Assembly (NCBI GenBank): GCA_951406725.2
Contig: OX597815.1
Coordinates: 185,318,001 to 185,382,000 of the forward strand
DNA from: Octopus vulgaris
Lineage: Eukaryota
Direction: 5' to 3'
DNA length: 64,000 nucleotides
A program made the position numbers and the translations under genes. Shown here one piece after another: positions 840-31,734 of this stretch. How positions within the stretch are numbered: the first letter of the stretch is position 1; each line of letters opens with the position of its first letter. The notes beneath the pieces are model-generated. The model did not search any database. It was not told the DNA's origin and saw only the letters and a program-made list of their open reading frames with translations.

Positions 840-1285
840 ATTTCTTCATTGCCCACAGCGGGGCAAAAGCTCGCGAGCAAAAGGGCAAAAACTCGCTCGA
901 TAGAGGAGACAAACAAGGACAGACAAACGGATTAAGTCGATTATATCGACCCCAGTGCGTAACTGGTACTTATTTAATCGACCTCAAAAGGATGAAATGC
1001 AAAGTCAACCTCGGCGGAATTTGAACTCAGAACGTAACGACAGACGAAATAACTATTTCTTTACTACCCACAAGGGGCTAAACACAGAGAGGAGAAACAA
1101 GGACAGACAAACGGATTACGTCGATTATATCGACCCCAGTGCGTAACTGGTACTTATTTAATCGACCCCGAAAGGATGAAAGGCAAAGTCCACCTCGGCG
1201 GTATTTGAACTCAGAACGTAACGGCAGACGAAATACCGTGAAGTATTTTGCCCGACATGCTAACGATTGTGCCAGCTCGTTGCCC
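840..1285 (-). mobile_element. SINE family B (Nin-domain-like), tandem units
   Basis: Reverse complement of gagttcaaattccgccgaggtcgactttgcctttcatcctttcggggtcgattaaataagtaccag, repeated; partial duplicate at 9132-9377. Confidence 0.85.
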
Positions 1286-1837
1286 TATAAATGATAAAAA
1301 CATTGTCACAGAAGCAAGTTTATAGGACAGAGACACTAGTAATCAAACAAAAGAGCCTTATTTATTTTGCAAGATCACATAGCTAACATTATCAATCGCT
1401 CTTCAAGTAGACTTAATAATTCTTTCAACAAAAATTTTAACAAAATTAGTATATATAAAGCAGTGGATTGACAGATCGTTAGCACCCTCTGAATTCAGAT
1501 TCTGCCGTATCGACTGTGTCTTTAATCCTTTCGGGATCAATAAAATAAGTACCAGTTAAACATTGGGGTCCGTTTAATCGATGTAACCCCTCCCTCACAA
1601 CTTCTGGTCGTGTGCCAATATTTGAAGCCAATACAAGTAAATGCATTTCGGATTTTATCAGCTAATCTTTAGCCTTAATCCATAATTACGTCTTTGGAAT
1701 AATTCCAATTCAGTAACAGATTTGTTTAATCTTATCCAGGATTTAAAACAACAATTTCCTTCGAATTTAATATATTTTTACTCTACAATCACTATACCTA
1801 TTGATACTTTTGCACTTAGCCATGCAAATTCGATCAC

Positions 1838-2044
1838 TTTTACTCTTTTAATGGTTTCAGTCATTTGACTGTGGCCACGCTGGAGCACCGCCTTTTAGTC
1901 GAGCAAATCGACCCTAGGACTTATTCTTTATAAGCCTAGTACTTATTCTATCAGTCTCTTTTGCCGAACCGCAAGGTGACAGGGACATAAACACACCAGC
2001 ATCAGTTGCCAAGTGATGTTGGGGTGACAAACATAGACACAAAC

Positions 2045-2079
<35 letters not shown>

Positions 2080-2245
2080 CATATATACGATGGGCTTCTT
2101 TCAGTTTCCGTCTACCAAATCCACTCACAAGGCTTTGGTTGGCCCGAGGCTATAATAGAAGACACTTGTCCAAGGTGCCACGCTGTGGGACAGAACCCGG
2201 AACCATGTGGTTCGTAAGCAAGCTATTTACAACACAGCTACTCCA
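1838..2245 (-). mobile_element. SINE family A (tRNA-derived head, internal (TA)n/(TG)n, LINE-like tail)
   Basis: Head with A-box-like and B-box-like motifs, body gtggatttggtagacggaaactgaaagaagcc, tail ggcggtgctccagcgtggccacagtcaaatgactgaaac; duplicate at 9930-10337. Confidence 0.9.
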
Positions 2246-3500
2246 ACGTTTAGAACAAAGACATTAATATTATATTGCACGTTTATTAACCTATTCTTTT
2301 GTGACAACTCTATTTCGACGAAGAAACAAAACACGGAACCCTTCGATATCAGCATGGGATGAAGATATTCAGATGAGTACTATGGTCTAATTGTATAACT
2401 TTAATCCACTACGCAAAGTATTTTCGTTGACCTCTGGTATTTTATATCGGAGTTCTTTTTTCTATACTTCCGTAATTTTAATCCAAACCACTGATACATG
2501 AGGCTCTTCATAAAGTTTTCGAAAATTCGAATTTTTCTGCCATATTTAAAGCTCACTTAATAGTCATCACCTTTCATGTTACATTTAATTTAAATGACTT
2601 TTTTTAATGTAGAAAACTCTCAAAATTCACTTTATAAACATCAAAGGAATTCTTCAATATGTTCAGGAATATACTCATCATCTCAATAGTGACGGTGAAA
2701 AGTTGGTAAAAAGTAGTTTTCCCTTTAAAAAATATACGTAGTCTTAAAACAAGCAAGTTTTTAACGAAATATTCAATTCTTTATTAGGAGTGGTTACACA
2801 GAATGAGTGAAATATACAAATACTGTTTTAAAACCTGAAGATACTTGTTCAAGGATATCTGGAAAGCGATATAATCCGTTATTCAAATTAAAATTTATAA
2901 CATTAGCAAACAGGCTTGGGAACTACTTTTAAAGTATTTTCCATAAAACTACAAAAACTAAACCATGTACAAAAAACGTACGGAAATCATTCAAGTACGA
3001 GACTAGTATAGGTAAAGTAGAAATATCATGATGGGCTAAAAAAAAAATAATAACCAGTTGTAGATTGAAAATAAAAGAGATGGCGAAGGCATTTCTTGCT
3101 GTTTAATCAGCGGAGGTTTGAAGCATACGTAATGTTTAATTTATTCGCTTTTATGGCAGCATGACATCTGGGTTGCAACCGCTTGAAGAAGGACAATATA
3201 AATATCTCGGTCGACGTATATAAATATCTCGCCGTGTAGGTTGGTAGTGGGTTGTTTTAGACGCTATAAAGCTACACTCCTTTATATTTCCACAGATAAA
3301 TACTAATCTATAAACATGATCTCGCCTTCTACATTTTTAGAATAGGTAAGGATCTTATTTAAACTTACCTTATAACCTCCAAACAGTCGATTGAACAGCA
3401 GTGACGAAACTTAATGATGCCTCTACCCTCCTGGTTTAATGTTTTCTCATACTACACACCACTCGTTCAATTCCGCTGGAATACTAATAACTTAATCTTA

Positions 3501-3525
3501 GATATATATATATATATATATATAT

Positions 3526-3594
<69 letters not shown>

Positions 3595-3710
3595 CAGACA
3601 GAGAGAGAGAGATAGATAGATAGATAGACAGAGAGATGAGAGATAGATAGATAGATAGATAGACAGACAGAGAGATGAGAGATAGATAGGCAGATAGATA
3701 GATAGATATG
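3501..3710. repeat. (TA)n/(GATA)n compound microsatellite
   Basis: Visible directly; duplicate at ~11593-11800. Confidence 0.95.
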
Positions 3711-4112
3711 TATGTATATACATACATGCATAGATAGATACATACATGCATACATACATGCATTGATATGTGAAGGTATAATATAGGTGAAAACATTTGC
3801 ATGCATATTATGAGCATCAATAGATATGCTTATATACATATGTATATATTCATAAACACACATACATACAAACATACATACACACACATATACATACATA
3901 ACCTTTCTTTAGAGATTACACTCTCTCTTGTATCTATTACCATTTCTTTTCCTTGTTTCTCCTATATCAAATGTGTTCACGGACTTTCTGTTTGTTATTC
4001 AAATCTGTACGCTCCCAGCTTACAGATTTATTCCCCATGTTCATTATCAAAGTAGATGACATTTAGGGAAAGAATATACTAGAGAAAAGCACTTATTCCT
4101 GCTGAGAATTGG

Positions 4113-4150
<38 letters not shown>

Positions 4151-5194
4151 AAAAATTTCATCTCGCCTCGCTACAGGTATTATAGATGCGTGTCTCCTTC
4201 TTGTGAATTATTAATAACGAAATACAAGACATTGCCACTCTCCCATATTATATGAGATTTAATATCAACACTTTCAAACTGAAGTGTGTGTGTGTGTGTT
4301 TGGTGTTTTGCATTCGTTTGTTAAATTTATGTGTTGATTTATGCTTGATTTTTTTTTTTTTTATAATACTGCAATACAACATTTTTCGCTTCATCCTACG
4401 AGGATTTGGAAATATTTCAAAATAAAACAAAATGCTTCTTTTTTTTCTCAAATACATTGTATTTTCCTTTTTATAATGTGTATCAAGAGAATATTACTTC
4501 AGATGCCTTCAGCGCTTTGTACGAGATTTTTTAAAATTGGATCACCATAAATGAATTTGCTCAACTTTCATACATTTACAGAATACCCTTGATATATTTT
4601 ACTGAATGGAAAGGAAACAACGCTATTATATATATATATATACATAAAGTATGTGTATGTATGGATGCGTGGATGCGTATATATTATGTTCCGTGATATC
4701 AAGTTTCCACTAAAATTTCTTGTTGTTGCCTTGAAGTCAAATGAGGATATGATAGTCTTTATATATTTTCAAAATCGCTCTCGTATTTACAAATGTACGT
4801 TTCGGTTCTATATTCCGAAAACAAATAAATACCTACAATAAATGTAAAGATAATGTTACAGATTGTTACATATACTTATTAAGATCACTTACAACATCAC
4901 TGTTATTTTGAAAAAAATTACTTAAATCTCTTTTACAGTTTTTCTTATTCATTTGATATGTTCGTGTAGAACGTGGCACGATATTATATATGATGAGCAA
5001 AAGGACGGTGCTGAGTTGTCAAACATTTAAACCAAACTTTCTCAAAACAACTTGTCCGACCGTCCCATAGGCCTCCCCATTTGAGAAACACTGATTTAAC
5101 CTACATTTGAGACACCAGCAAAAGAAGAAATACAGATAGACTTTTTTTTTATTACAAAGAAAAACGATTTTATTCACTTTATCGATCGCATTCT

Positions 5195-5337
5195 CACTTG
5201 GAATCGATTTTTGTAATTTTTTTCAAGACTGATAGCGTTGGTATTTACATATCAAATTTGAGTGCAATCGGATGGAGGATGCCCGAGATCCTAGAAGACA
5301 CACACACAGACAGACAGAACGGATTTTATATAATAGA
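5195..5337 (-). mobile_element. Non-autonomous Helitron-like 5' end
   Basis: Minus strand reads A|TCTATTATATAAAATCCGTTCTGTCTGTCTGTGTGTG...CCGATTGCACTCAAATTTG: TC terminus after A plus a (GTCT)n subterminal microsatellite, a common layout in invertebrate non-autonomous Helitrons. Duplicate at ~13286-13428. Confidence 0.55.
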
Positions 5338-5639
5338 TTAGATTTTCGCCTTTTTTTAGACTTGGTCTAAATAATAACGGTGACAGTGGATGTCATAAGC
5401 CCTTATAAGTGATGTGTTTGATGGAGTTGGTTACGTTTCTGAACAAATTCAAGTAGTCGACATAGACAACCGTAGAACAAAATATTATATTATTTAGGGT
5501 AATTTAGAATGCGTCTATGTTAAGGAGTCAAGCCTCGCGAACAAGGTACAATATTTGTAATGTAAGGGTAAGCGTCGAGTAAAACGGATGTCCTCACTTG
5601 TTGCGGTACCATTCGCCCCTGTATTGAGTACTGCTGTCA

Positions 5640-5830
5640 CAGGTGCTCCTGCGGATTGCATAACTCTGTTGGACCGCACTCAACACCGTATTTGTAATGT
5701 TATTGGTCCTGATCTATCTTCTAAATTGGATTCATTCTCTCATCGTCGTCATGTGGCTTCCTTGTCTCCTTTCTTTAAATATTTCCATGGACATTGTTCA
5801 GCTGAAATCTCTTCTCTGGTGTCTTATTCA
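5640..5830 (+). pseudogene. Non-LTR (Jockey/CR1-group) ORF2 C-terminal remnant
   Basis: LLDRTQHRICNVIG...LDSFSHRRHVASLSPFFKYFHGHCSAEI resembles the post-RT LLDRVQ...LSHRRxVASLSLFYRYxHGxCS motif. Duplicate at ~13731-13921. Confidence 0.7.
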
Positions 5831-6489
5831 AACCCCACAAAATTCCCCTCAACACATGGCTATGATGCCACCCCAATAATTTCTGCTCGTGATCAGAGAT
5901 GCACATATTATCAACCGCCAAGCGACATGCTCAAATTGTCAAACATTTGACGAGCGAATGTGTGATATTGAGCAGAATATTTGATGTATTGCATCTGTTA
6001 CACCAAGACAAGGCAATCTACATAGTAACACTACCAATAAGTTAAGATCAGAAGCCATGAGAATCATCATCATCATCATTATTATTATTATTATTATTCG
6101 TTCGAATTCATTCTGACAAACGATGAGTAAAACAATATAATTTACAATTAACTCAAATACTTTGAACAGTTTTATTTTGTAAATATTTAGGAGACATGCA
6201 ACATATTGCTTTAAAATTCTTAGTAAAATCATGAACTTCAAAAAAATTTATTACAACATTCTTATTAATTTAAAATCTCTAATAATTCCCTTTCTTGTTT
6301 TAGCTTTAATGTTATGCTTTGACCTGGGTATGTTCTCTGTGAGTTATAAAATTTAAACTAAATTTCAGTACAGAGAAGTAAATTGCCCATCAAGTTTTCT
6401 TTCTTCTCCAGTTTATCGATAATTCATGCGTAGACAATATTATGAAAAACGACGTTAACAATAGAATTATAAATTATAAACATACAGCA

Positions 6490-6490
6490 T

Positions 6491-6531
<41 letters not shown>

Positions 6532-6563
6532 TATATAGATATATAGATATATGTGTGTGTATG

Positions 6564-6594
<31 letters not shown>

Positions 6595-6927
6595 ATGTGT
6601 GTGTATATATATATGTGTATGTGTGTGTATATATATATGTGTATGTGTGTATATATATATATGTGTAAGTATGTATACATATATGCGTGTGTATATATAT
6701 ATGTGTATGTATGTATACATATATATATATGTATATACATATGTGTATGTATGTATACATATATATATATGTATATACATGTGTGTATGTATGTATATAT
6801 AAACATATATATATATGTATTTATGTATGTGTATATTTATATATATGTATGTAGATATATATATGTGTGTATATTTATATATGTATATTTTTTATATATG
6901 CATGTATATGTGTATATATATATATGC

Positions 6928-6971
<44 letters not shown>

Positions 6972-7445
6972 GCGTGTGTGAGTGTGTAAAATAAGGTTAA
7001 TGAGATATATAATACAGAAAATTAAATGAATGAAATGGAAACTTTTCGATGTTAAATATTTGCATTCGATACGTGAATAATCACCTTTCAATTTCATTGG
7101 GAAATTTTCAAAGGGAAAATGAGTTTATGCGTTTCATTTTTTAATTTCGCGAACCAGCGATTACAAATGCTTGGTGTTTCATCATATGAAGTCCGGTTAG
7201 TGATATGCTGAATCGCTTATGATTCCTATGTACGACAAGAGTCATTTGCGCTCTAGTTTCATTTCACTACTATTACCAATGCTCTTACTGTGATTATTAA
7301 TACTGCACATATCTCTAAAATTATGAATTTCCTTAGAACATTATCAAATGTCAATTAGAGATACATTAAAAACTGCTCTCTGCTATTCTAGTTGTCATTT
7401 AGAAGAAATATACATACATACATACACATACAAACACACACACAT

Positions 7446-7527
<82 letters not shown>

Positions 7528-7669
7528 AAGACTTGGCCCCCGTGCTATCCGCCCACTACAAAAAGGGAACTCGGTACACATAGCAAAATTACGTTGTATA
7601 TATCGGGGTGCCACGTATATATATATATACATCAGTATACATATATATAATGTAATAAATAAAATACAT

Positions 7670-7710
<41 letters not shown>

Positions 7711-8109
7711 TGTATATATATATGTGTATATATATGTATATATATATATATGTATATATATGTATATATATGTATATATATGTATATATATATATATGTA
7801 TATATATATGTATATATATATGTATATATATATATATGTATATAGATATATATGTATATAGATATATATGTATATATATATATATATGTATATAGATATA
7901 TATGTATATATATATATGTATATATATACGTATATGTATATATATATGTATATATATATGTATATATATATGTATATATATGTATATATATATCTATATA
8001 TACAGCAGTATACATACATATATATATACATATATATGTATATATATATATATATCAGTATATATATATATAGTATATATATGTATATATATACTATATA
8101 TATGTATAC

Positions 8110-8145
<36 letters not shown>

Positions 8146-8199
8146 ATACATATATATACATATATATGTATATATATATATATATATACAGCAGTATAC

Positions 8200-8244
<45 letters not shown>

Positions 8245-8279
8245 AAAAGCAATAAAGATTCAAGTTAATTTAAATATAC

Positions 8280-8310
<31 letters not shown>
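6490..8310. repeat. Long (TA)n/(TG)n/(TATG)n compound microsatellite blocks with short unique islands
   Basis: Visible directly; source of the I/Y-repeat ORFs; duplicate at ~14582-16372. Confidence 0.9.
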
Positions 8311-8311
<1 letters not shown>

Positions 8312-9031
8312 GGATAGGTTTTTATATATACAAGGACAGGTTTTATTAAAAGTTGCAAAAATTACAGCATATAAACATGTCCCGTACTCATCAGCTAAAA
8401 TACATGTGAGTTCTCTAGACATCCTAGTGGTTGAGGCTATACTCATGAAGTAATGTAGATAATTAAATAACATAAACAGATTTCAAAAGTTCATTAAAGT
8501 TCTTTAAAGATGATTTACAGTCTTATTACAGAATTTCAAAAAAGTCTTAATAGCATCACAGAATTTCAAAAAAGTCTTAATAGCATCACAGAGAAGGTGA
8601 CCCGATCCACAGTGCACATATGAATTTCCAGAGATATGATGAGGGGTTACATACTCACAGAAAGCAAATTTATCCATTGTCAATTATAACGAGGTGGGTT
8701 TCAATTCCTGCTTATTAGCATTACAGAGAGGGTGAGTTAATCCTTTGTATAGATGCACAATTTCCAATGGTGTAGGTGTAAATTTCCAAGGAATTTCATA
8801 TTCACCGGCGATAAATTTATCAATGGTTGAACACAATGAGGTAGGTATCAAATCTTGCTATATGAATAGGTATTTGTCACATTAATCAGATTACTGCTAT
8901 TTACAAGAGGCTGTAGCTATTTGATTTTTAAGGCTGAAGAGCTTACTAGAGCTGTATAGAATAGAAGAGGGAAGGGCATAGAAGAGAAGCGAGAAAATAA
9001 AATAGAGAGAAAATAAAAGAGGAGGGAGCAA

Positions 9032-9131
9032 NNNNNNNNNNNNNNNNNNNNNNNNNNNNNNNNNNNNNNNNNNNNNNNNNNNNNNNNNNNNNNNNNNNNN
9101 NNNNNNNNNNNNNNNNNNNNNNNNNNNNNNN
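9032..9131. other. Assembly gap (100 N)
   Basis: Run of 100 N. Confidence 1.
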
Positions 9132-10136
9132 ACAGACGAAATAACTATTTCTTTACTACCCACAAGGGGCTAAACACAGAGAGGAGAAACAAGGACAGAC
9201 AAACGGATTACGTCGATTATATCGACCCCAGTGCGTAACTGGTACTTATTTAATCGACCCCGAAAGGATGAAAGGCAAAGTCCACCTCGGCGGTATTTGA
9301 ACTCAGAACGTAACGGCAGACGAAATACCGTGAAGTATTTTGCCCGACATGCTAACGATTGTGCCAGCTCGTTGCCCTATAAATGATAAAAACATTGTCA
9401 CAGAAGCAAGTTTATAGGACAGAGACACTAGTAATCAAACAAAAGAGCCTTATTTATTTTGCAAGATCACATAGCTAACATTATCAATCGCTCTTCAAGT
9501 AGACTTAATAATTCTTTCAACAAAAATTTTAACAAAATTAGTATATATAAAGCAGTGGATTGACAGATCGTTAGCACCCTCTGAATTCAGATTCTGCCGT
9601 ATCGACTGTGTCTTTAATCCTTTCGGGATCAATAAAATAAGTACCAGTTAAACATTGGGGTCCGTTTAATCGATGTAACCCCTCCCTCACAACTTCTGGT
9701 CGTGTGCCAATATTTGAAGCCAATACAAGTAAATGCATTTCGGATTTTATCAGCTAATCTTTAGCCTTAATCCATAATTACGTCTTTGGAATAATTCCAA
9801 TTCAGTAACAGATTTGTTTAATCTTATCCAGGATTTAAAACAACAATTTCCTTCGAATTTAATATATTTTTACTCTACAATCACTATACCTATTGATACT
9901 TTTGCACTTAGCCATGCAAATTCGATCACTTTTACTCTTTTAATGGTTTCAGTCATTTGACTGTGGCCACGCTGGAGCACCGCCTTTTAGTCGAGCAAAT
10001 CGACCCTAGGACTTATTCTTTATAAGCCTAGTACTTATTCTATCAGTCTCTTTTGCCGAACCGCAAGGTGACAGGGACATAAACACACCAGCATCAGTTG
10101 CCAAGTGATGTTGGGGTGACAAACATAGACACAAAC

Positions 10137-10171
<35 letters not shown>

Positions 10172-11613
10172 CATATATACGATGGGCTTCTTTCAGTTTC
10201 CGTCTACCAAATCCACTCACAAGGCTTTGGTTGGCCCGAGGCTATAATAGAAGACACTTGTCCAAGGTGCCACGCTGTGGGACAGAACCCGGAACCATGT
10301 GGTTCGTAAGCAAGCTATTTACAACACAGCTACTCCAACGTTTAGAACAAAGACATTAATATTATATTGCACGTTTATTAACCTATTCTTTTGTGACAAC
10401 TCTATTTCGACGAAGAAACAAAACACGGAACCCTTCGATATCAGCATGGGATGAAGATATTCAGATGAGTACTATGGTCTAATTGTATAACTTTAATCCA
10501 CTACGCAAAGTATTTTCGTTGACCTCTGGTATTTTATATCGGAGTTCTTTTTTCTATACTTCCGTAATTTTAATCCAAACCACTGATACATGAGGCTCTT
10601 CATAAAGTTTTCGAAAATTCGAATTTTTCTGCCATATTTAAAGCTCACTTAATAGTCATCACCTTTCATGTTACATTTAATTTAAATGACTTTTTTTAAT
10701 GTAGAAAACTCTCAAAATTCACTTTATAAACATCAAAGGAATTCTTCAATATGTTCAGGAATATACTCATCATCTCAATAGTGACGGTGAAAAGTTGGTA
10801 AAAAGTAGTTTTCCCTTTAAAAAATATACGTAGTCTTAAAACAAGCAAGTTTTTAACGAAATATTCAATTCTTTATTAGGAGTGGTTACACAGAATGAGT
10901 GAAATATACAAATACTGTTTTAAAACCTGAAGATACTTGTTCAAGGATATCTGGAAAGCGATATAATCCGTTATTCAAATTAAAATTTATAACATTAGCA
11001 AACAGGCTTGGGAACTACTTTTAAAGTATTTTCCATAAAACTACAAAAACTAAACCATGTACAAAAAACGTACGGAAATCATTCAAGTACGAGACTAGTA
11101 TAGGTAAAGTAGAAATATCATGATGGGCTAAAAAAAAAATAATAACCAGTTGTAGATTGAAAATAAAAGAGATGGCGAAGGCATTTCTTGCTGTTTAATC
11201 AGCGGAGGTTTGAAGCATACGTAATGTTTAATTTATTCGCTTTTATGGCAGCATGACATCTGGGTTGCAACCGCTTGAAGAAGGACAATATAAATATCTC
11301 GGTCGACGTATATAAATATCTCGCCGTGTAGGTTGGTAGTGGGTTGTTTTAGACGCTATAAAGCTACACTCCTTTATATTTCCACAGATAAATACTAATC
11401 TATAAACATGATCTCGCCTTCTACATTTTTAGAATAGGTAAGGATCTTATTTAAACTTACCTTATAACCTCCAAACAGTCGATTGAACAGCAGTGACGAA
11501 ACTTAATGATGCCTCTACCCTCCTGGTTTAATGTTTTCTCATACTACACACCACTCGTTCAATTCCGCTGGAATACTAATAACTTAATCTTAGATATATA
11601 TATATATATATAT

Positions 11614-11682
<69 letters not shown>

Positions 11683-12201
11683 CAGACAGAGAGATGAGAG
11701 ATAGATAGATAGATAGACAGAGAGATGAGAGATAGATAGATAGATAGATAGACAGACAGAGAGATGAGAGATAGATAGGCAGATAGATAGATAGATATGT
11801 ATGTATATACATACATGCATAGATAGATACATACATACATACATACATGCATTGATATGTGAAGGTATAATATAGGTGAAAACATTTGCATGCATATTAT
11901 GAGCATCAATAGATATGCTTATATACATATGTATATATTCATAAACACACATACATACAAACATACATACACACACATATACATACATAACCTTTCTTTA
12001 GAGATTACACTCTCTCTTGTATCTATTACCATTTCTTTTCCTTGTTTCTCCTATATCAAATGTGTTCACGGACTTTCTGTTTGTTATTCAAATCTGTACG
12101 CTCCCAGCTTACAGATTTATTCCCCATGTTCATTATCAAAGTAGATGACATTTAGGGAAAGAATATACTAGAGAAAAGCACTTATTCCTGCTGAGAATTG
12201 G

Positions 12202-12239
<38 letters not shown>

Positions 12240-14582
12240 AAAAATTTCATCTCGCCTCGCTACAGGTATTATAGATGCGTGTCTCCTTCTTGTGAATTAT
12301 TAATAACGAAATACAAGACATTGCCACTCTCCCATATTATATGAGATTTAATATCAACACTTTCAAACTGAAGTGTGTGTGTGTGTGTTTGGTGTTTTGC
12401 ATTCGTTTGTTAAATTTATGTGTTGATTTATGCTTGATTTTTTTTTTTTTATAATACTGCAATACAACATTTTTCGCTTCATCCTACGAGGATTTGGAAA
12501 TATTTCAAAATAAAACAAAATGCTTCTTTTTTTTTTCTCAAATACATTGTATTTTCCTTTTTATAATGTGTATCAAGAGAATATTACTTCAGATGCCTTC
12601 AGCGCTTTGTACGAGATTTTTTTAAAATTGGATCACCATAAATGAATTTGCTCAACTTTCATACATTTACAGAATACCCTTGATATATTTTACTGAATGG
12701 AAAGGAAACAACGCTATTATATATATATATATACATAAAGTATGTGTATGTATGGATGCGTGGATGCGTATATATTATGTTCCGTGATATCAAGTTTCCA
12801 CTAAAATTTCTTGTTGTTGCCTTGAAGTCAAATGAGGATATGATAGTCTTTATATATTTTCAAAATCGCTCTCGTATTTACAAATGTACGTTTCGGTTCT
12901 ATATTCCGAAAACAAATAAATACCTACAATAAATGTAAAGATAATGTTACAGATTGTTACATATACTTATTAAGATCACTTACAACATCACTGTTATTTT
13001 GAAAAAAATTACTTAAATCTCTTTTACAGTTTTTCTTATTCATTTGATATGTTCGTGTAGAACGTGGCACGATATTATATATGATGAGCAAAAGGACGGT
13101 GCTGAGTTGTCAAACATTTAAACCAAACTTTCTCAAAACAACTTGTCCGACCGTCCCATAGGCCTCCCCATTTGAGAAACACTGATTTAACCTACATTTG
13201 AGACACCAGCAAAAGAAGAAATACAGATAGACTTTTTTTTTATTACAAAGAAAAACGATTTTATTCACTTTATCGATCGCATTCTCACTTGGAATCGATT
13301 TTTGTAATTTTTTTCAAGACTGATAGCGTTGGTATTTACATATCAAATTTGAGTGCAATCGGATGGAGGATGCCCGAGATCCTAGAAGACACACACACAG
13401 ACAGACAGAACGGATTTTATATAATAGATTAGATTTTCGCCTTTTTTTAGACTTGGTCTAAATAATAACGGTGACAGTGGATGTCATAAGCCCTTATAAG
13501 TGATGTGTTTGATGGAGTTGGTTACGTTTCTGAACAAATTCAAGTAGTCGACATAGACAACCGTAGAACAAAATATTATATTATTTAGGGTAATTTAGAA
13601 TGCGTCTATGTTAAGGAGTCAAGCCTCGCGAACAAGGTACAATATTTGTAATGTAAGGGTAAGCGTCGAGTAAAACGGATGTCCTCACTTGTTGCGGTAC
13701 CATTCGCCCCTGTATTGAGTACTGCTGTCACAGGTGCTCCTGCGGATTGCATAACTCTGTTGGACCGCACTCAACACCGTATTTGTAATGTTATTGGTCC
13801 TGATCTATCTTCTAAATTGGATTCATTCTCTCATCGTCGTCATGTGGCTTCCTTGTCTCCTTTCTTTAAATATTTCCATGGACATTGTTCAGCTGAAATC
13901 TCTTCTCTGGTGTCTTATTCAAACCCCACAAAATTCCCCTCAACACATGGCTATGATGCCACCCCAATAATTTCTGCTCGTGATCAGAGATGCACATATT
14001 ATCAACCGCCAAGCGACATGCTCAAATTGTCAAACATTTGACGAGCGAATGTGTGATATTGAGCAGAATATTTGATGTATTGCATCTGTTACACCAAGAC
14101 AAGGCAATCTACATAGTAACACTACCAATAAGTTAAGATCAGAAGCCATGAGAATCATCATCATCATCATTATTATTATTATTATTATTCGTTCGAATTC
14201 ATTCTGACAAACGATGAGTAAAACAATATAATTTACAATTAACTCAAATACTTTGAACAGTTTTATTTTGTAAATATTTAGGAGACATGCAACATATTGC
14301 TTTAAAATTCTTAGTAAAATCATGAACTTCAAAAAAAATTTATTACAACATTCTTATTAATTTAAAATCTCTAATAATTCCCTTTCTTGTTTTAGCTTTA
14401 ATGTTATGCTTTGACCTGGGTATGTTCTCTGTGAGTTATAAAATTTAAACTAAATTTCAGTACAGAGAAGTAAATTGCCCATCAAGTTTTCTTTCTTCTC
14501 CAGTTTATCGATAATTCATGCGTAGACAATATTATGAAAAACGACGTTAACAATAGAATTATAAATTATAAACATACAGCAT

Positions 14583-14623
<41 letters not shown>

Positions 14624-14655
14624 TATATAGATATATAGATATATGTGTGTGTATG

Positions 14656-14686
<31 letters not shown>

Positions 14687-15019
14687 ATGTGTGTGTATAT
14701 ATATATGTGTATGTGTGTGTATATATATATGTGTATGTGTGTATATATATATATGTGTAAGTATGTATACATATATGCGTGTGTATATATATATGTGTAT
14801 GTATGTATACATATATATATATGTATATACATATGTGTATGTATGTATACATATATATATATGTATATACATGTGTGTATGTATGTATATATAAACATAT
14901 ATATATATGTATTTATGTATGTGTATATTTATATATATGTATGTAGATATATATATGTGTGTATATTTATATATGTATATTTTTTATATATGTATGTATA
15001 TGTGTATATATATATATGC

Positions 15020-15065
<46 letters not shown>

Positions 15066-15539
15066 GCGTGTGTGAGTGTGTAAAATAAGGTTAATGAGAT
15101 ATATAATACAGAAAATTAAATGAATGAAATGGAAACTTTTCGATGTTAAATATTTGCATTCGATACGTGAATAATCACCTTTCAATTTCATTGGGAAATT
15201 TTCAAAGGGAAAATGAGTTTATGCGTTTCATTTTTTAATTTCGCGAACCAGCGATTACAAATGCTTGGTGTTTCATCATATGAAGTCCGGTTAGTGATAT
15301 GCTGAATCGCTTATGATTCCTATGTACGACAAGAGTCATTTGCGCTCTAGTTTCATTTCACTACTATTACCAATGCTCTTACTGTGATTATTAATACTGC
15401 ACATATCTCTAAAATTATGAATTTCCTTAGAACATTATCAAATGTCAATTAGAGATACATTAAAAACTGCTCTCTGCTATTCTAGTTGTCATTTAGAAGA
15501 AATATACATACATACATACACATACAAACACACACACAT

Positions 15540-15617
<78 letters not shown>

Positions 15618-15758
15618 AAGACTTGGCCCCCGTGCTATCCGCCCACTACAAAAAGGGAACTCGGTACACATAGCAAAATTACGTTGTATATATCGGGGTG
15701 CCACGATATATATATATACATCAGTATACATATATATAATGTAATAAATAAAATACAT

Positions 15759-15799
<41 letters not shown>

Positions 15800-15859
15800 T
15801 GTATATATATATGTATATATATGTATATATATGTATATATATGTATATATATATGTATA

Positions 15860-15902
<43 letters not shown>

Positions 15903-15909
15903 GTATATA

Positions 15910-15959
<50 letters not shown>

Positions 15960-16328
15960 TATATATGTATATATATATATATATGTATATAGATATATAT
16001 GTATATATATATATGTATATATATACGTATATGTATATATATATGTATATATATATGTATATATATATGTATATATATGTATATATATATCTATATATAC
16101 AGCAGTATACATACATATATATATACATATATATGTATATATATATCTATATATACAGCAGTATACATACATATATATACATATATATGTATGTATATAT
16201 ATATCTATATATACATAGTATACATACATATATATACATATATATGTATATATATATATATATATATAGTATACGTATATATATATACATATATATGTAT
16301 ATATATATATATATATACAGCAGTATAC

Positions 16329-16378
<50 letters not shown>

Positions 16379-17241
16379 AGCAATAAAGATTCAAGTTAAT
16401 TTAAATGAATTTACTTGAATATGGTACCTAACTTAGATGCACCAAAAAAAACTATACTGATTTAACAATACAGTAATGTGGGGTGATTATAAGCGAGAAT
16501 GAAGCAACAAGAATGGATAGGTTTTTAGTACGATCGTTTCATACAAGGACAGGTTTTATTAAAAGTTGCAAAAATTACAGCATATAAACATGTCCCGTAC
16601 TCATCAGCTAAAATACATGTGAGTTCTCTAGACATCCTAGTGGTTGAGGCTATACTCATGAAGTAATGTAGATAATTAAATAACATAAACAGATTTCAAA
16701 AGTTCATTAAAGTTCTTTAAAGATGATTTACAGTCTTATTACAGAATTTCAAAAAAGTCTTAATAGCATCACAGAATTTCAAAAAAGTCTTAATAGCATC
16801 ACAGAGAAGGTGACCCGATCCACAGTGCACATATGAATTTCCAGAGATATGATGAGGGGTTACATACTCACAGAAAGCAAATTTATCCATTGTCAATTAT
16901 AACGAGGTGGGTTTCAATTCCTGCTTATTAGCATTACAGAGAGGGTGAGTTAATCCTTTGTATAGATGCACAATTTCCAATGGTGTAGGTGTAAATTTCA
17001 AGGAATTTCATATTCACCGGCGATAAATTTATCAATGGTTGAACACAATGAGGTAGGTATCAAATCTTGCTATATGAATAGGTATTTGTCACATTAATCA
17101 GATTACTGCTATTTACAAGAGGCTGTAGCTATTTGATTTTTAAGGCTGAAGAGCTTACTAGAGCTGTATAGAATAGAAGAGGGAAGGGCATAGAAGAGAA
17201 GAGAAAATAAAATAGAGAGAAAATAAAAGAGGAGGGAGCAA
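9132..17241 (+). repeat. Copy 2 of ~8.1 kb duplication
   Basis: Begins acagacgaaataactatttc (= position 1040) and matches to ggagggagcaa (= 9031), then continues into unique sequence. Confidence 0.95.
16523..16613 (-). ncRNA. Type I hammerhead ribozyme (sense to the PLE ORF)
   Basis: Reverse complement of 19203-19293: UUUUAG-CUGAUGA-stem II-GAAA-C-GAUC-GUA-CUAAAA. Confidence 0.85.
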
Positions 17242-18161
17242 AAAAGGGAGGGGGGAAAGGGGGACTCAAAGAGAAGAGAAAAGGAAAAAGATGATAAGAA
17301 GAAGAAAAAGAAAAAAGAGAAAAGAGAAAGAAATAGGGAAGGAAGGGAAAAAAAGAGAAAAAGAAGAAAAAAAAAAAAAGAAAAAAGAAGAAAGAAGAAA
17401 GAAAAAGAAAAAAAAAATTCTACTTATACGGAAGAATTAGTAGACGACAAGTCTGGTTTTAGCTTACAGGCATCTAGGAATTAGGGAGAATATTATTCTT
17501 TGACCAGTTAAAACAGCTAATTTATTGCTGTTGAAACCAGCTATGAATTTAAAGAGAATCTAAAGAGATAACACAGTTAGGGTTTCGGGGTCAGATGCTA
17601 AAATCATCAGAAAATACATTAGGGAAAACTAGGTATGATCTTATCAAAAAGTCATTAAAATTTACTTATTTAATTTATTCATTTTATTGTCTTAAGGAGT
17701 TGCCGTTATTATTCATACATTGACGGACTACAGGTCAAGTCTTAGAAGATCATTTAAAAGGTGTTAGGGGATTGTCTATCATAATGAAGATAATCATATT
17801 ATCACCGAGGGAATAGTCTCATTTATTTAAATTTGAAGTAGAATTATGGGTCTATAGCAACTCATTCTAATTAATTAGAGTTATACTAACTAAATTAGAT
17901 TAAGTTGGGAACTAAAATTAAAAATTACAATTAAGATTTAAAATTAAGAATTTAAAAAAATTTAAAAGTTGTGAGTTTGAAATTAAATAAAGCCTCAATT
18001 AAGCAGCGAATAAGTGCTATCCATTTCCCTGTTCTCAAAAAACTGATGCAGATATAGGACAAAGATAACTGTAGTTTGAGAACTCTTATTTATCTACTTA
18101 AAGCAGTGCTATACCAGTAGAAAACAGGTTATATCAATCTATCTAGTTACAAATATTCTAA

Positions 18162-19037
18162 TCATTTAAAATATTTTAAAGTCATTAATTTAGCGTGGAC
18201 ACAAACTTGACCTAGCTCGATATGGTTATTCAATAGGTTTGTATGCTTTCTATGCTTTAGAATTTCATATGTCTCCATGGAGCATAGTTGGCAACCAACC
18301 CTACTATTTTTATACGGAATTGCTCTCCTAACTATTTCCCAATTAAGGTTATAATTTTTATTATTATTTTTGAGTTCCCAGATTTTGTTTGAAAGTGTGG
18401 TGGTACCAGCTTTATGACGTAATTTAAAAGTCGAGATGTGATTTCTAACTCTAGCTAAAAAATTTATTGTACATCCAATGTAATGATATTTGTTATTCTC
18501 CGTGGATATGGTACATTTATAGATTACATTATTTTCTCCACATAGACCAGGTGCCGGGCATTTTGATTTTATTCTACATTTACACACAGGAGGAACACCT
18601 TCAGGCTTTGGATTATTCTTGGGTAGATGTTTTAGGTTCCTATTATTTTGATTATCATTTCTATAGTTGGTTCTGATATCTAAAGTGTTGCTATTATTTC
18701 TTGATCCTTCTAATTCATTATTTAGATCTAAAGTCCTACCATGATTTCTTATATTATTGGTAATGTTAATATTATTGCTAGTCTTTTTATCCGGCTGCAT
18801 ATTGTTGTTATAGATATCACTAATATTTTCATTCTCCTTATTTTCTCTATTTTCCCTATCTCTATTATTTCTATTATTAACATTATTACTTCTACTAATA
18901 TCGGCATTGCTATTATTACTATTAATGTTAATGTTATTAGTCATTCTGTGGTTACTAATTTCACCTATGTTTTGATAGTTACTATTGCTGCTTTTATTGT
19001 TGGTAGTATTATTACAATTGCTATTGGTATTTTTCAA
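18162..19037 (-). CDS. Penelope-like GIY-YIG endonuclease domain with Asn-rich linker (no RT; open frame begins at a TTG at the inverted-repeat junction)
   Basis: CKCRIKSKCPAPGLC zinc-knuckle, NVIYKC...YHYIGCT, RVRNH, TTLSNKIWELK, WEIV, CQLCSME, LLN, CVH: typical PLE endonuclease motifs. Confidence 0.85.
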   Translation of the reverse strand: MKNTNSNCNNTTNNKSSNSNYQNIGEISNHRMTNNININSNNSNADISRSNNVNNRNNRDRENRENKENENISDIYNNNMQPDKKTSNNINITNNIRNHGRTLDLNNELEGSRNNSNTLDIRTNYRNDNQNNRNLKHLPKNNPKPEGVPPVCKCRIKSKCPAPGLCGENNVIYKCTISTENNKYHYIGCTINFLARVRNHISTFKLRHKAGTTTLSNKIWELKNNNKNYNLNWEIVRRAIPYKNSRVGCQLCSMETYEILKHRKHTNLLNNHIELGQVCVHAKLMTLKYFK

Positions 19038-19202
19038 ATTCTGTGATGCTATTAAGACTTTTTTGAAATTCTGTAATAAGACTGTAAATCATCTTTAAAG
19101 AACTTTTAATGAACTTTTGAAATCTGTTTATGTTATTTAATTATCTACATTACTTCATGAGTATAGCCTCAACCACTAGGATGTCTAGAGAACTCACATG
19201 TA

Positions 19203-19293
19203 TTTTAGCTGATGAGTACGGGACATGTTTATATGCTGTAATTTTTGCAACTTTTAATAAAACCTGTCCTTGTATGAAACGATCGTACTAAAA
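19203..19293 (+). ncRNA. Type I hammerhead ribozyme (inverted pLTR)
   Basis: Stem I TTTTAG(19203-08)/CTAAAA(19288-93); core CTGATGA 19209-15; 60-nt stem II GTACGGGACA...TGTCCTTGTAT; GAAA 19276-79; stem III AC-GATC-GT with palindromic loop; predicted cleavage after GUA (19287). Confidence 0.9.
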
Positions 19294-19321
19294 ACCTATC
19301 CATTCTTGTTGCTTCATTCTC

Positions 19322-19410
<89 letters not shown>

Positions 19411-22434: not shown

Positions 22435-23105
22435 TTTACTCTCTCTTTTACTCTTTTACTTGTTTCAGTCATTTGACTGCGGTCATGTGTCTGTGTATGT
22501 CCCCCAACATCGCTTGACAACCGATGGTGGTGTGTTTACGTACCCGTAACATAGCGCTTCGGCAAAAGAGACCGATAGAATAAGTACTAGGCTCACAAAG
22601 AATAAGTCCTGGGGTCGATTTGCTCCACTAAAAGGCGGTGCTCCAGCATGGCCACAGTCAAATGACTGAAACAAGTAAAAAAGGAAAGAGTAAAGAGACG
22701 CAGGAGTGGCTGTGTGGTAAGTAGCTTGCTTACAAACCACATGGTTCCGGGTTCAGTCCCACTGCGTGGCACCTTGGGCAAGTGTCTTCTGCTATAGCCC
22801 TGGGCCGACCAATGCCTTGTGAGTGGATTTGGTAGACGGAAACTGAAAGAAGCCTGTCGTATATATGTATATATATATATGTGTGTTTGTGTGTGTGTGT
22901 GTGTTTGTGTGTCTGTGTTTGTTCCCCTAGCATTGCTTGACAACCGATGCTGGTGTGTTTACGTCCCCGTCACTTAGCGGTTCGGCAAAAGAGACCGATA
23001 GAATAAGTACTGGGCTTACAACGAATAAGGCCCGGGGTCGATTTGCTCGACTAAAAGGCGGTGCTCCAGCATGGCCGCAGTCAAATGACTGAAACAAATA
23101 AAAGA
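22435..23105 (+). mobile_element. SINE family A cluster: minus-strand tail fragment (22435-22482), plus-strand 3' half (22485-22695), full plus-strand copy (22697-23105)
   Basis: Full copy: gcaggagtggctgtgtggtaag (A box)...gggttcagtccc (B box)...ggcggtgctccagcatggccgcagtcaaatgactgaaac. Confidence 0.9.
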
Positions 23106-23305
23106 GAGAAAAAAAAGAGAGAGTAATATATATATCCATTATACATTTATGTATGTTTCTATGTGTGTGTGTGTGTGTGTGGATGTATGTGTATGTATGT
23201 GTGTGGCAAATAAGTAACAGTGATTTCCAGATATCAGTGCATTACGGCCGTTTCAAACGGCTAATTTTACATACCTAATTCAACTGAATTTCAATTATTT
23301 CTCTT

Positions 23306-30532: not shown

Positions 30533-31280
30533 TGGCGGAGAAGGCGAGCTGGCAGAATCGTTAGCACGCCGGGCGAAATGCTCCGCGGTATTTCGTCTGC
30601 CGCTACGTTCTGAGTTCAAATTCCGCCGAGGTCGACTTTGCTTTTCATCCTTTCGGGGTCGATTAAATAAGTACCAGTTACGCACTGGGGTTGATATAAT
30701 CGACTTTATCCGTTTGTCTATCCTTGTTTGTCTCCTCTGTGTTTATCCCCTTGTGGGTAGTAAAGAAATAGTTATTTCGTCTGCCGCTACGTTCTGAGTT
30801 CAAATTCCGCCAAGGTCGACTTTGCCTTTCATCCTTTCGGGGTCGATTAAATAAGTACCAGTTACGCACTGGGGCTGATATAATCGACTTAATCTGTTTG
30901 TCCCCTCTGTGTTTAGCCCCTTGTGGGTAGTAAAGAAATTGGTATTTCGTCTGCCGCTACGTTCTGAGTTCAAATTCCGCCGAGGTCGACTTTGCCTTTC
31001 ATCGTTTCGGGGTCGATTAAATAAGTACCAGTTACGCACTGGAGTCGATATAATCGACTTAATCTGTTTGTCCTCTCTGTGATTAGCCCCTTGTGGGTAG
31101 TAAAGAAATAGTTATTTCGTCTGCCGCTACGTTCTGAGTTCAAATTCCGCCGAGGTTGACTTTGCCTTTCATCCTTTCGGAGTCGATTAAATAAGTACCA
31201 GTTACTCACTGGGGTCGATATAATCGACTTAATCTGTTTGTCCTCTCTGTGTTTAGGCCCTTGTGGGTAATAAAGAAATA
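30533..31280 (+). mobile_element. SINE family B tandem array (one head plus four ~170-185 bp units)
   Basis: Unit tatttcgtctgccgctacgttctgagttcaaattccgcc recurs at ~30589, 30773, 30943 and 31113. Confidence 0.9.
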
Positions 31281-31734
31281 GGTTATAGAGGAAAAGGTTA
31301 ACACTCATTCCATTTTCCAGTCTATTCTTGTACACCAAAACATTCTGGAAATATTCTCAATTCAAGAGGGCAAGGATTTTCCGGTGAAACAGCCGCTGTT
31401 CAACATGCATTAACAATTATTCCTGATATTATTCTCGTAAACGTAGCGTAGAATGGAACGACTTCTACTTGGCTGATTTATTTTTAATACAGTAAACGAA
31501 GTGGAATTTCTGGAACAGTACTTCTATTTTTCTATACATTGATCAGCGACTGAAGCATTGCCTATAACCTTCGTATGATGTTTGAAATTTTGCATTATCA
31601 ATACTGTGCAGAACTCAAAACCAATTTTAATATTTGTAATCCTTTTCGCTAACCAACTCAAACTGAAGAGATTTCAACCGCTAAGCTAATTTAATGTATA
31701 CCTACGTCTGGACCGATAATATTACTGAAATATT

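What the first reader, a model, noticed from the sequence alone, without database searches (positions are those of the whole stretch)
16375..19322. GIY-YIG-only Penelope-like element bracketed by two opposed, intact hammerheads
Seen: an uninterrupted 291-codon frame with an Asn-rich linker, a CxCx5CPxxGxC knuckle and a GIY-YIG domain, but no RT. It has a ~1.4 kb 3' region and ~285 bp near-identical inverted repeats, each with a complete hammerhead (GAUC palindromic loop, GUA cleavage site). The frame opens at the inverted-repeat junction. Near identity of the arms suggests a young insertion. Inference: most likely a 5'-truncated PLE (the knuckle pattern suggests a Naiad-like lineage, unverified). 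If the same structure recurs elsewhere, it would instead be a self-contained endonuclease-only, ribozyme-flanked element that borrows RT in trans.
Basis: partly seen in the sequence, partly recalled or inferred. Interest (0 to 1): 0.75.

Follow-up and report, generated by a model that had tools for sequence, protein, structure and literature searches.

The report
Truncated Hydra-clade Penelope retrotransposon copy
This is an ordinary broken copy of a known kind of jumping gene (a Hydra-type Penelope element): complete copies with the missing copying enzyme sit elsewhere in the same genome, and the two facing ribozyme motifs are the element's usual end, likely written in twice during one insertion.

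Summary
In detail: an open Asn-rich/knuckle/GIY-YIG frame, a long 3' region and two ~290-bp inverted arms, each with a type I hammerhead, inside (TA)n. The junction 30-mer occurs once in the 2.8-Gb genome. 7 of 16 fetched copies that keep the start codon encode an unbroken 949-957-aa RT + C-terminal GIY-YIG protein. Probe counts fall from 1353 (ribozyme) to 114 (endonuclease), 80 (RT) and 18 (ORF start); RT-less copies break at scattered points. So it is a 5'-truncated, 5'-inverted copy, not an endonuclease-only class. The lineage is Hydra (RWK, DKT, CxCx5C, no CCHH, hammerhead, (TA)n; Craig 2021), not Naiad. The family is long for Hydra (~4.65 kb, two Asn-rich inserts). Of residual interest: all 29 opposed pairs on contig C1 have one end with a ~117-nt tail and one without, and at least 6 are non-nested, which favours two independent priming events. 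A one-sided tail is in print, and this scan noted the rule and a tail hairpin before in other genomes.

The parts
16340..16373 (.). (TA)n target tract, left flank
   Evidence: sequence; nearly all copy ends on C1 abut (TA)n
16375..16493 (-). 3' 'tail' (~117-119 nt), the long end; in tandem copies the same sequence runs on into the 5' UTR and ATG of the next unit
16440..16485 (-). conserved bulged hairpin in the tail (8-9-bp upper stem, U-rich bulge, CACC/GGUG base), starting ~8 nt past the short end
   Evidence: 97.8% of cells paired, one U-A/G-C compensatory pair (17 vs 17 rows)
16494..16785 (-). 3' pLTR portion of the main copy (source sequence of the inverted arm), includes a 30-bp tandem duplication
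16523..16613 (-). type I hammerhead with long stem II and palindromic stem III; predicted cut between 16529 and 16528
   Evidence: cleavage not tested
16786..18161 (-). 3' UTR, shared with full-length copies, with a U-rich tract
18162..19031 (-). 3' third of the RT-EN ORF (from about residue 666 of 954): second Asn-rich insert, knuckle, GIY-YIG; no RT, no native start
18540..18584 (-). CxCx5C...C linker knuckle (Hydra type)
18195..18527 (-). GIY-YIG endonuclease without CCHH, with CxxC and CxH
19030..19035 (.). inversion junction, 2-nt overlap and one mismatched base; unique in the genome
19030..19322 (+). inverted, 5'-truncated second arm ending at the short (tail-less) end
19203..19293 (+). 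second hammerhead; antisense to the ORF; predicted cut between 19287 and 19288
   Evidence: cleavage not tested
19323..19407 (.). (TA)n target tract, right flank
   Evidence: sequence

Best explanation
The stretch is a young, 5'-truncated copy of a ~4.65-kb Hydra-clade Penelope-like retrotransposon with a short inverted copy of the element's own 3' end attached, likely made in one insertion by the RT-endonuclease protein of a full-length family member. Shown: full-length RT+EN copies, unique junction, (TA)n flanks, one tailed and one tail-less end. Inferred: the GIY-YIG domain cuts (TA)n on both strands. Each freed 3' end primes reverse transcription at one of two fixed sites ~117 nt apart, downstream of the hammerhead. 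One cDNA stopped after ~2.66 kb (inside the Asn-rich linker), the other after ~290 nt, and the two were joined head to head through a 2-nt overlap. The two ribozymes are simply the pLTR present in both arms; they lie on opposite strands, so no single transcript is bracketed by two working hammerheads. The copy is probably inert.
For: Unbroken 949-957-aa ORFs in 7 of 16 fetched ATG-bearing copies. Predicted fold matches telomerase RTs first (E 1.5e-8). Junction 30-mer 1 match genome-wide; of 40 scored candidates only the window spans it. In 3 of 4 other DNA runs laid, contigs go on at 19031 with full-length ORF sequence. Exact-probe counts 1353/114/80/18 from 3' to 5'. RT-less, EN-bearing copies break at scattered points from ref 1245 to 2533. 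Opposed-pair spacing on C1 runs from 113 to 5368 bp, median 765, window 2611. 29 of 29 C1 pairs are tailed + tail-less (27 by an automatic rule; 2 by BLAST ends). At least 6 of 29 are non-nested. An anole PLE protein cuts and extends both strands and starts at two adjacent RNA sites (PMC11167929). Inverted truncated copy and one-sided tail are described as typical (PMC8557442 section 6; PMC3846280 passages).
Against: No tree with named Hydra references was built; clade assignment rests on motifs and on a by-eye look at supplement sequences. The unit is longer than described Hydra elements (<3 kb) and the tail is longer than the 30-40 bp in print. About 6 of 29 C1 pairs have both arms starting within 5 nt of each other, some with palindromic junctions, which fits fold-back as well. 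No target-site duplication can be read inside (TA)n. No enzyme or ribozyme activity was tested. One other copy (L020) breaks 3 nt from the window's point, though with a different partner arm.
Confidence: 0.93

Rival explanations
1. A self-contained endonuclease-only, ribozyme-flanked element that spreads as a unit and borrows RT in trans.
For: The EN frame is open and keeps the residues invariant in 27 relatives. About 18 other EN-bearing, RT-less copies were seen among fetched loci.
Against: Unique junction; scattered breakpoints; no recurring pair size; hammerheads on opposite strands; open frame expected at 0.3% divergence from a sister copy.
Confidence: 0.02
2. Same identity, but the inverted arm arose by fold-back or self-priming of a single cDNA or antisense template rather than by two priming events.
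For: Proposed in PMC3846280 from palindromic junctions (passages). About 6 of 29 C1 pairs have near-equal 5' ends. The window's short arm is nested within its long arm.
Against: At least 6 of 29 C1 pairs (L047, L059, L062, L067, L074, L077) have an untailed arm reaching 35-1428 nt further 5' than the tailed arm, so neither arm can be a copy of the other. The window's two 5' ends lie 2.26 kb apart, with no palindrome at the junction.
Confidence: 0.2
3. A Naiad-lineage element.
For: Naiads also target (TA)n and occur in cephalopods.
Against: EN is C-terminal to RT; no CX2-5CxxC, no CCHH, DKT rather than DKA; canonical hammerhead present.
Confidence: 0.01

Closest known systems
Hydra clade of C-terminal EN+ Penelope-like elements (Craig et al. 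2021, PMC8557442; read abstract, introduction, sections 6, 11, 15, passages, and supplement part 2 plus search hits)
   Same: RWK, DKT, CxCx5C linker, no CCHH, CxxC and CxH near the catalytic E and N, canonical 3' hammerhead, (TA)n insertion. The supplement lists Penelope-13_HM with a 5'-truncated inverted copy attached and opposed hammerheads, and one octopus family, Hydra-1_Obim.
   Different: Unit ~4.65 kb against 2.1-2.7 kb for the complete families listed. ORF 954 aa against 589-788 aa in 29 database relatives, owing to two Asn-rich inserts. 3' UTR ~1.7 kb. Hammerhead stem II-loop region ~60 nt. Protein and hammerhead differ by eye from Hydra-1_Obim, so it is another family.
Adineta vaga Penelope elements with Asn-rich inserts (Arkhipova et al. 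2013, PMC3846280; passages read)
   Same: In-frame Asn-rich insert between RT and EN, inverted pLTRs, tail on one inverted pLTR.
   Different: Different host and clade motifs; 31-bp tail there, ~117 nt here.
Poseidon_Ac (PAc) in vitro system (Frangieh et al. 2024, PMC11167929; parts 1-2 of 4 read)
   Same: Two RT start sites whose interval is the tail; both strands cut and extended; AT-rich target.
   Different: PAc starts lie inside the ORF at sites reported not homologous to the target. Here both ends lie upstream of the ATG, next to short UA-rich words.
PLE hammerheads (Cervera and de la Pena 2014, PMC4209133; part 1 of 4 read)
   Same: Type I motif with short palindromic helix III thought to act as a dimer; pairs on opposite strands 100-700 bp apart noted in Schistosoma.
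   Different: Longer stem II; no functional difference shown.

Membership tests
EN+ Penelope-like elements | Single ORF with telomerase-like RT and GIY-YIG endonuclease | tested here: met
   Full-length sister copies; folds. The window copy keeps only the EN part.
EN+ Penelope-like elements | Partial tandem pLTRs, inverted 5'-truncated copy, one-sided tail | tested here: met
Hydra clade | C-terminal EN | tested here: met
   YRDD at 355, EN at 834-944 of 954
Hydra clade | RWK motif; DKG changed to DKT | tested here: met
   RWK at 37, DKT at 124
Hydra clade | CxCx5C linker; CCHH absent; CxxC and CxH present | tested here: met
   CKCRIKSKC at 815, one Cys between VIY and YLG, CQLC at 912, CVH at 942
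Hydra clade | Canonical hammerhead near the 3' end; (TA)n targets | tested here: met
Hydra clade | Generally short (<3 kb) | tested here: not met
   ~4.65 kb unit; a general tendency in the paper, explained here by low-complexity inserts and a long UTR
Hydra clade | Groups with Hydra RTs in a phylogeny | not tested
   Named reference sequences were seen only as text in a supplement and were not loaded; no tree built
Naiad | N-terminal EN | tested here: not met
Naiad | CX2-5CxxC and CCHH in EN, DKA, no canonical hammerhead | tested here: not met
Endonuclease-only non-autonomous class (proposed) | Same junction and size recurring at many loci | tested here: not met

The most novel reading that the evidence does not exclude
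Hydra-type PLEs integrate by obligatory two-ended priming: the two sides of a cut (TA)n tract always use different, fixed start sites on the RNA. Each site is marked by a short UA word that can anneal to the cut (TA)n end, as a telomerase template does, and by a CC...U-bulge...GG hairpin just downstream. This family, with intact ORFs and 29 of 29 asymmetric pairs, would be a ready test system.
Probability: 0.45. Interest if true: 0.55.

Novelty: new member of a known kind. Interest (0 to 1): 0.22.

Why it matters
As an element class it does not: this is the usual debris of an active Penelope-like family. It adds one long, apparently recently active Hydra family with intact ORFs that Pfam and Rfam both miss. 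The family census bears on an open question named in PMC8557442, how PLEs build their inverted ends and tails: strict tailed/tail-less pairing and non-nested arms argue for two priming events and give exact RNA start sites to test in vitro.

Tried and rejected
Rfam at gathering and E-value thresholds: no hammerhead family. Minimum-free-energy folding of the ribozyme region: not better than shuffles. Pfam: no family at cut-off for the window ORF, the full-length ORF or four relatives. PDB sequence search with the alignment: only a weak retron RT hit, E=0.01. Expression: no RNA holder listed; contigs from two guessed-RNA runs lie on the element but cannot show transcription, strand, ribozyme cuts or circles. 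No listed contig bridged the window's junction in four DNA runs, but that table was cut, so presence in other individuals is open. Covariation in hammerhead stems I and II is weak evidence: most copies were found by an exact probe on their 5' strands, and the shuffle control ignores relatedness. The second hairpin before the ATG has only two sequence types among the copies and a 2-bp base, so it is not shown. Possible EN-less elements (RT probe hit, no EN probe hit) were older subfamilies at 75-95% identity that still carry the EN region. Three literature searches showed no paper on an EN-only PLE class or on this family in the listings; the library lacks most subscription journals and Repbase/Dfam were not searchable, so the family may already be catalogued. 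Supplements of PMC11167929, PMC3846280, PMC4209133 and PMC13282606 were not read.

Full report
Observation. The region lies between two (TA)n tracts. On the minus strand a frame is open from 19088 to 18162 (308 aa stop to stop), with an Asn-rich part, CKCRIKSKCPAPGLC and a VIY...YIG domain. Pfam names nothing. A model of the last 152 aa, built on 27 relatives, matches I-TevI and T4 EndoII best (probability 0.99 and 0.92, E about 0.05), so the GIY-YIG reading holds, on weak E-values. The arms 16494-16785 and 19030-19322 are 99% identical. Each holds CUGAUGA, GAAAC-GAUC-GUA|C and a 6-bp stem I. Rfam misses the motif and its folding energy is unremarkable. A descriptor matched 1 of 20,000 shuffles, 140 of 143 homologous copies keep the core, and 99% of cells in the named structure pair across 47 distinct copies.

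What it is. A search of the own genome gave 2359 candidates, 40 scored; nearly all the long matches stop at query base 2657, the window's junction. Beyond that point the other copies continue with more ORF. Twenty longer stretches gave stop-free frames of up to 981 codons. Of 16 fetched copies that keep the start codon, 7 encode an unbroken 949-957-aa protein. Its model (pLDDT 75, two disordered Asn-rich stretches) matches telomerase RTs first. The unit is about 4.65 kb, and in tandem copies the tail runs into the 5' UTR and ATG of the next unit. The window keeps the unit from about residue 666 onward.

Test of the endonuclease-only idea. The junction 30-mer has one exact match in 2.8 Gb, and only the window spans it among 40 scored of 840 candidates. 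Exact 22-mer probes count 1353 at the ribozyme, 114 in the endonuclease, 80 at the RT active site and 18 at the ORF start; single probes miss diverged copies, so these are lower bounds, but the gradient is that of 5' truncation. EN-bearing copies without the RT site break at scattered points between reference bases 1245 and 2533 (23 rows; two are the same locus fetched twice, one is an internal duplication, one locus gives two arms; about 19 loci with the window). These loci were chosen by similarity, not at random. All 95 ribozyme probe hits on contig C1 were listed: 58 form 29 head-to-head pairs with spacings from 113 to 5368 bp, median 765; the window's is 2611. No size class recurs. The two hammerheads point outward on opposite strands, so one transcript cannot be cut by both.

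Clade. Section 11 of PMC8557442 defines Hydra by a C-terminal EN, RWK, DKT, CxCx5C, absence of CCHH, CxxC and CxH, canonical hammerheads and (TA)n targets. All are met. [quoted passage not shown] Naiad is excluded by domain order. No tree was built. The described octopus family Hydra-1_Obim is 2507 bp with another hammerhead and, by eye, a distant protein. The present family is longer because of inserts at residues 491-570 and 651-809 (29% and 34% Asn over the matching disordered stretches) and a 1.7-kb UTR; in-frame Asn-rich inserts are described in rotifer Penelopes.

How it arose. Copy ends fall at two sites about 117 nt apart, about 120 and 240 nt from the ribozyme probe. I fetched all 29 C1 pairs. 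Each has one long and one short end: 27 by an automatic rule and L062 and L069 by BLAST ends. With independent choice at most half should be mixed (chance 2e-9 if insertions are independent). Of the other 37 C1 hits I fetched 15 for this survey; three of them proved to be mixed pairs whose partner lacks the exact probe, and one tail-to-tail site is short-short. In at least 6 of the 29 pairs the untailed arm reaches further 5' than the tailed arm, so neither is a copy of the other; about 6 have near-equal 5' ends, as fold-back would give; several older ones cannot be scored against the reference. I therefore favour two priming events from the two sides of a cut, as the anole PLE protein allows in vitro. 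This step is inferred. Both ends abut short UA words in the RNA (UUAUA, GAAUAUAU); such words are common in this AT-rich unit (94 TATA/ATAT in 4752 bases), so annealing to the target is only a possibility.

Tail hairpin. I had the asymmetry before consulting earlier notes; those notes (unchecked AI notes from other genomes) report the same rule and gave the lead to twin hairpins. Here a hairpin just past the short end pairs in 97.8% of cells over 41 distinct tails, with one U-A/G-C swap between subfamilies and one U-G/U-A change (6 rows unpaired at the swapped position, partly misalignment; relatedness not controlled). A similar CC-stem-U-run-GG layout follows the long end but shows too little variation to judge.

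Age. The ORF part differs from sister copy L032 at 3 of 870 bases and the arm at 0 of 292, so the copy belongs to a very young subfamily, the one with the GAUC loop and a 30-bp duplication. In 3 of 4 other DNA runs, contigs at 19031 continue as full-length ORF; no listed contig bridges the junction, but the table was cut.

Verdict. Real but ordinary: a truncated, inverted copy of a Hydra-clade Penelope-like element. New member of a known kind, interest 0.22. The family's strict end rule is a useful handle on PLE integration, but a one-sided tail is already in print.

Noticed in passing
window 1040-8275 and 9132-16406: A 7.3-kb stretch occurs twice at 99.0% identity, separated by a partial copy of the element (8245-9031) and a 100-N gap (9032-9131). 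Probably an unmerged overlap or second haplotype; in the first copy about 100 bases of the element's tail are replaced by (TA)n.
   Followed up: partly
P0029 (database protein): A protein labelled by NCBI as an Octopus sinensis ankyrin-repeat protein begins with ~200 aa that are 69% identical to this element's N-terminus; likely a gene model fused to a related element. It also suggests the host is an octopus (inference).
   Followed up: no
hammerhead stem III across copies (alignment A3): One pair steps A-U (25 rows), G-U (19), G-C (3), always keeping the self-complementary 8-mer needed for a dimeric helix.
   Followed up: yes
short ends of young copies, e.g. L052, L055, L058, L066: Many short ends read ...TCTCGCG(TA)n although the internal sequence is ...TCTCGCTTATA; the extra G fits neither template nor target and may be inherited from a source locus or added at priming.
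   Followed up: no
L079 (G000:C1:196081316-196081644): Two arms face tail to tail across a (TA)n tract, both short-ended; probably two insertions in one tract.
   Followed up: no
L092, L094, L096, L102-L104, L106, L108, L109, L111: Older subfamilies at 75-88% DNA identity with the same layout; mostly broken ORFs.
   Followed up: partly
L048:7102-9900: A 933-codon open frame of an unrelated element beside a copy; its start looks like an AP-endonuclease LINE (recalled resemblance).
   Followed up: no
window 922-1279, 1836-2244, 22700-23135, 30543-31286 and others: Several dispersed 200-700-bp repeats at 80-92% identity, likely SINEs or MITEs.
   Followed up: no
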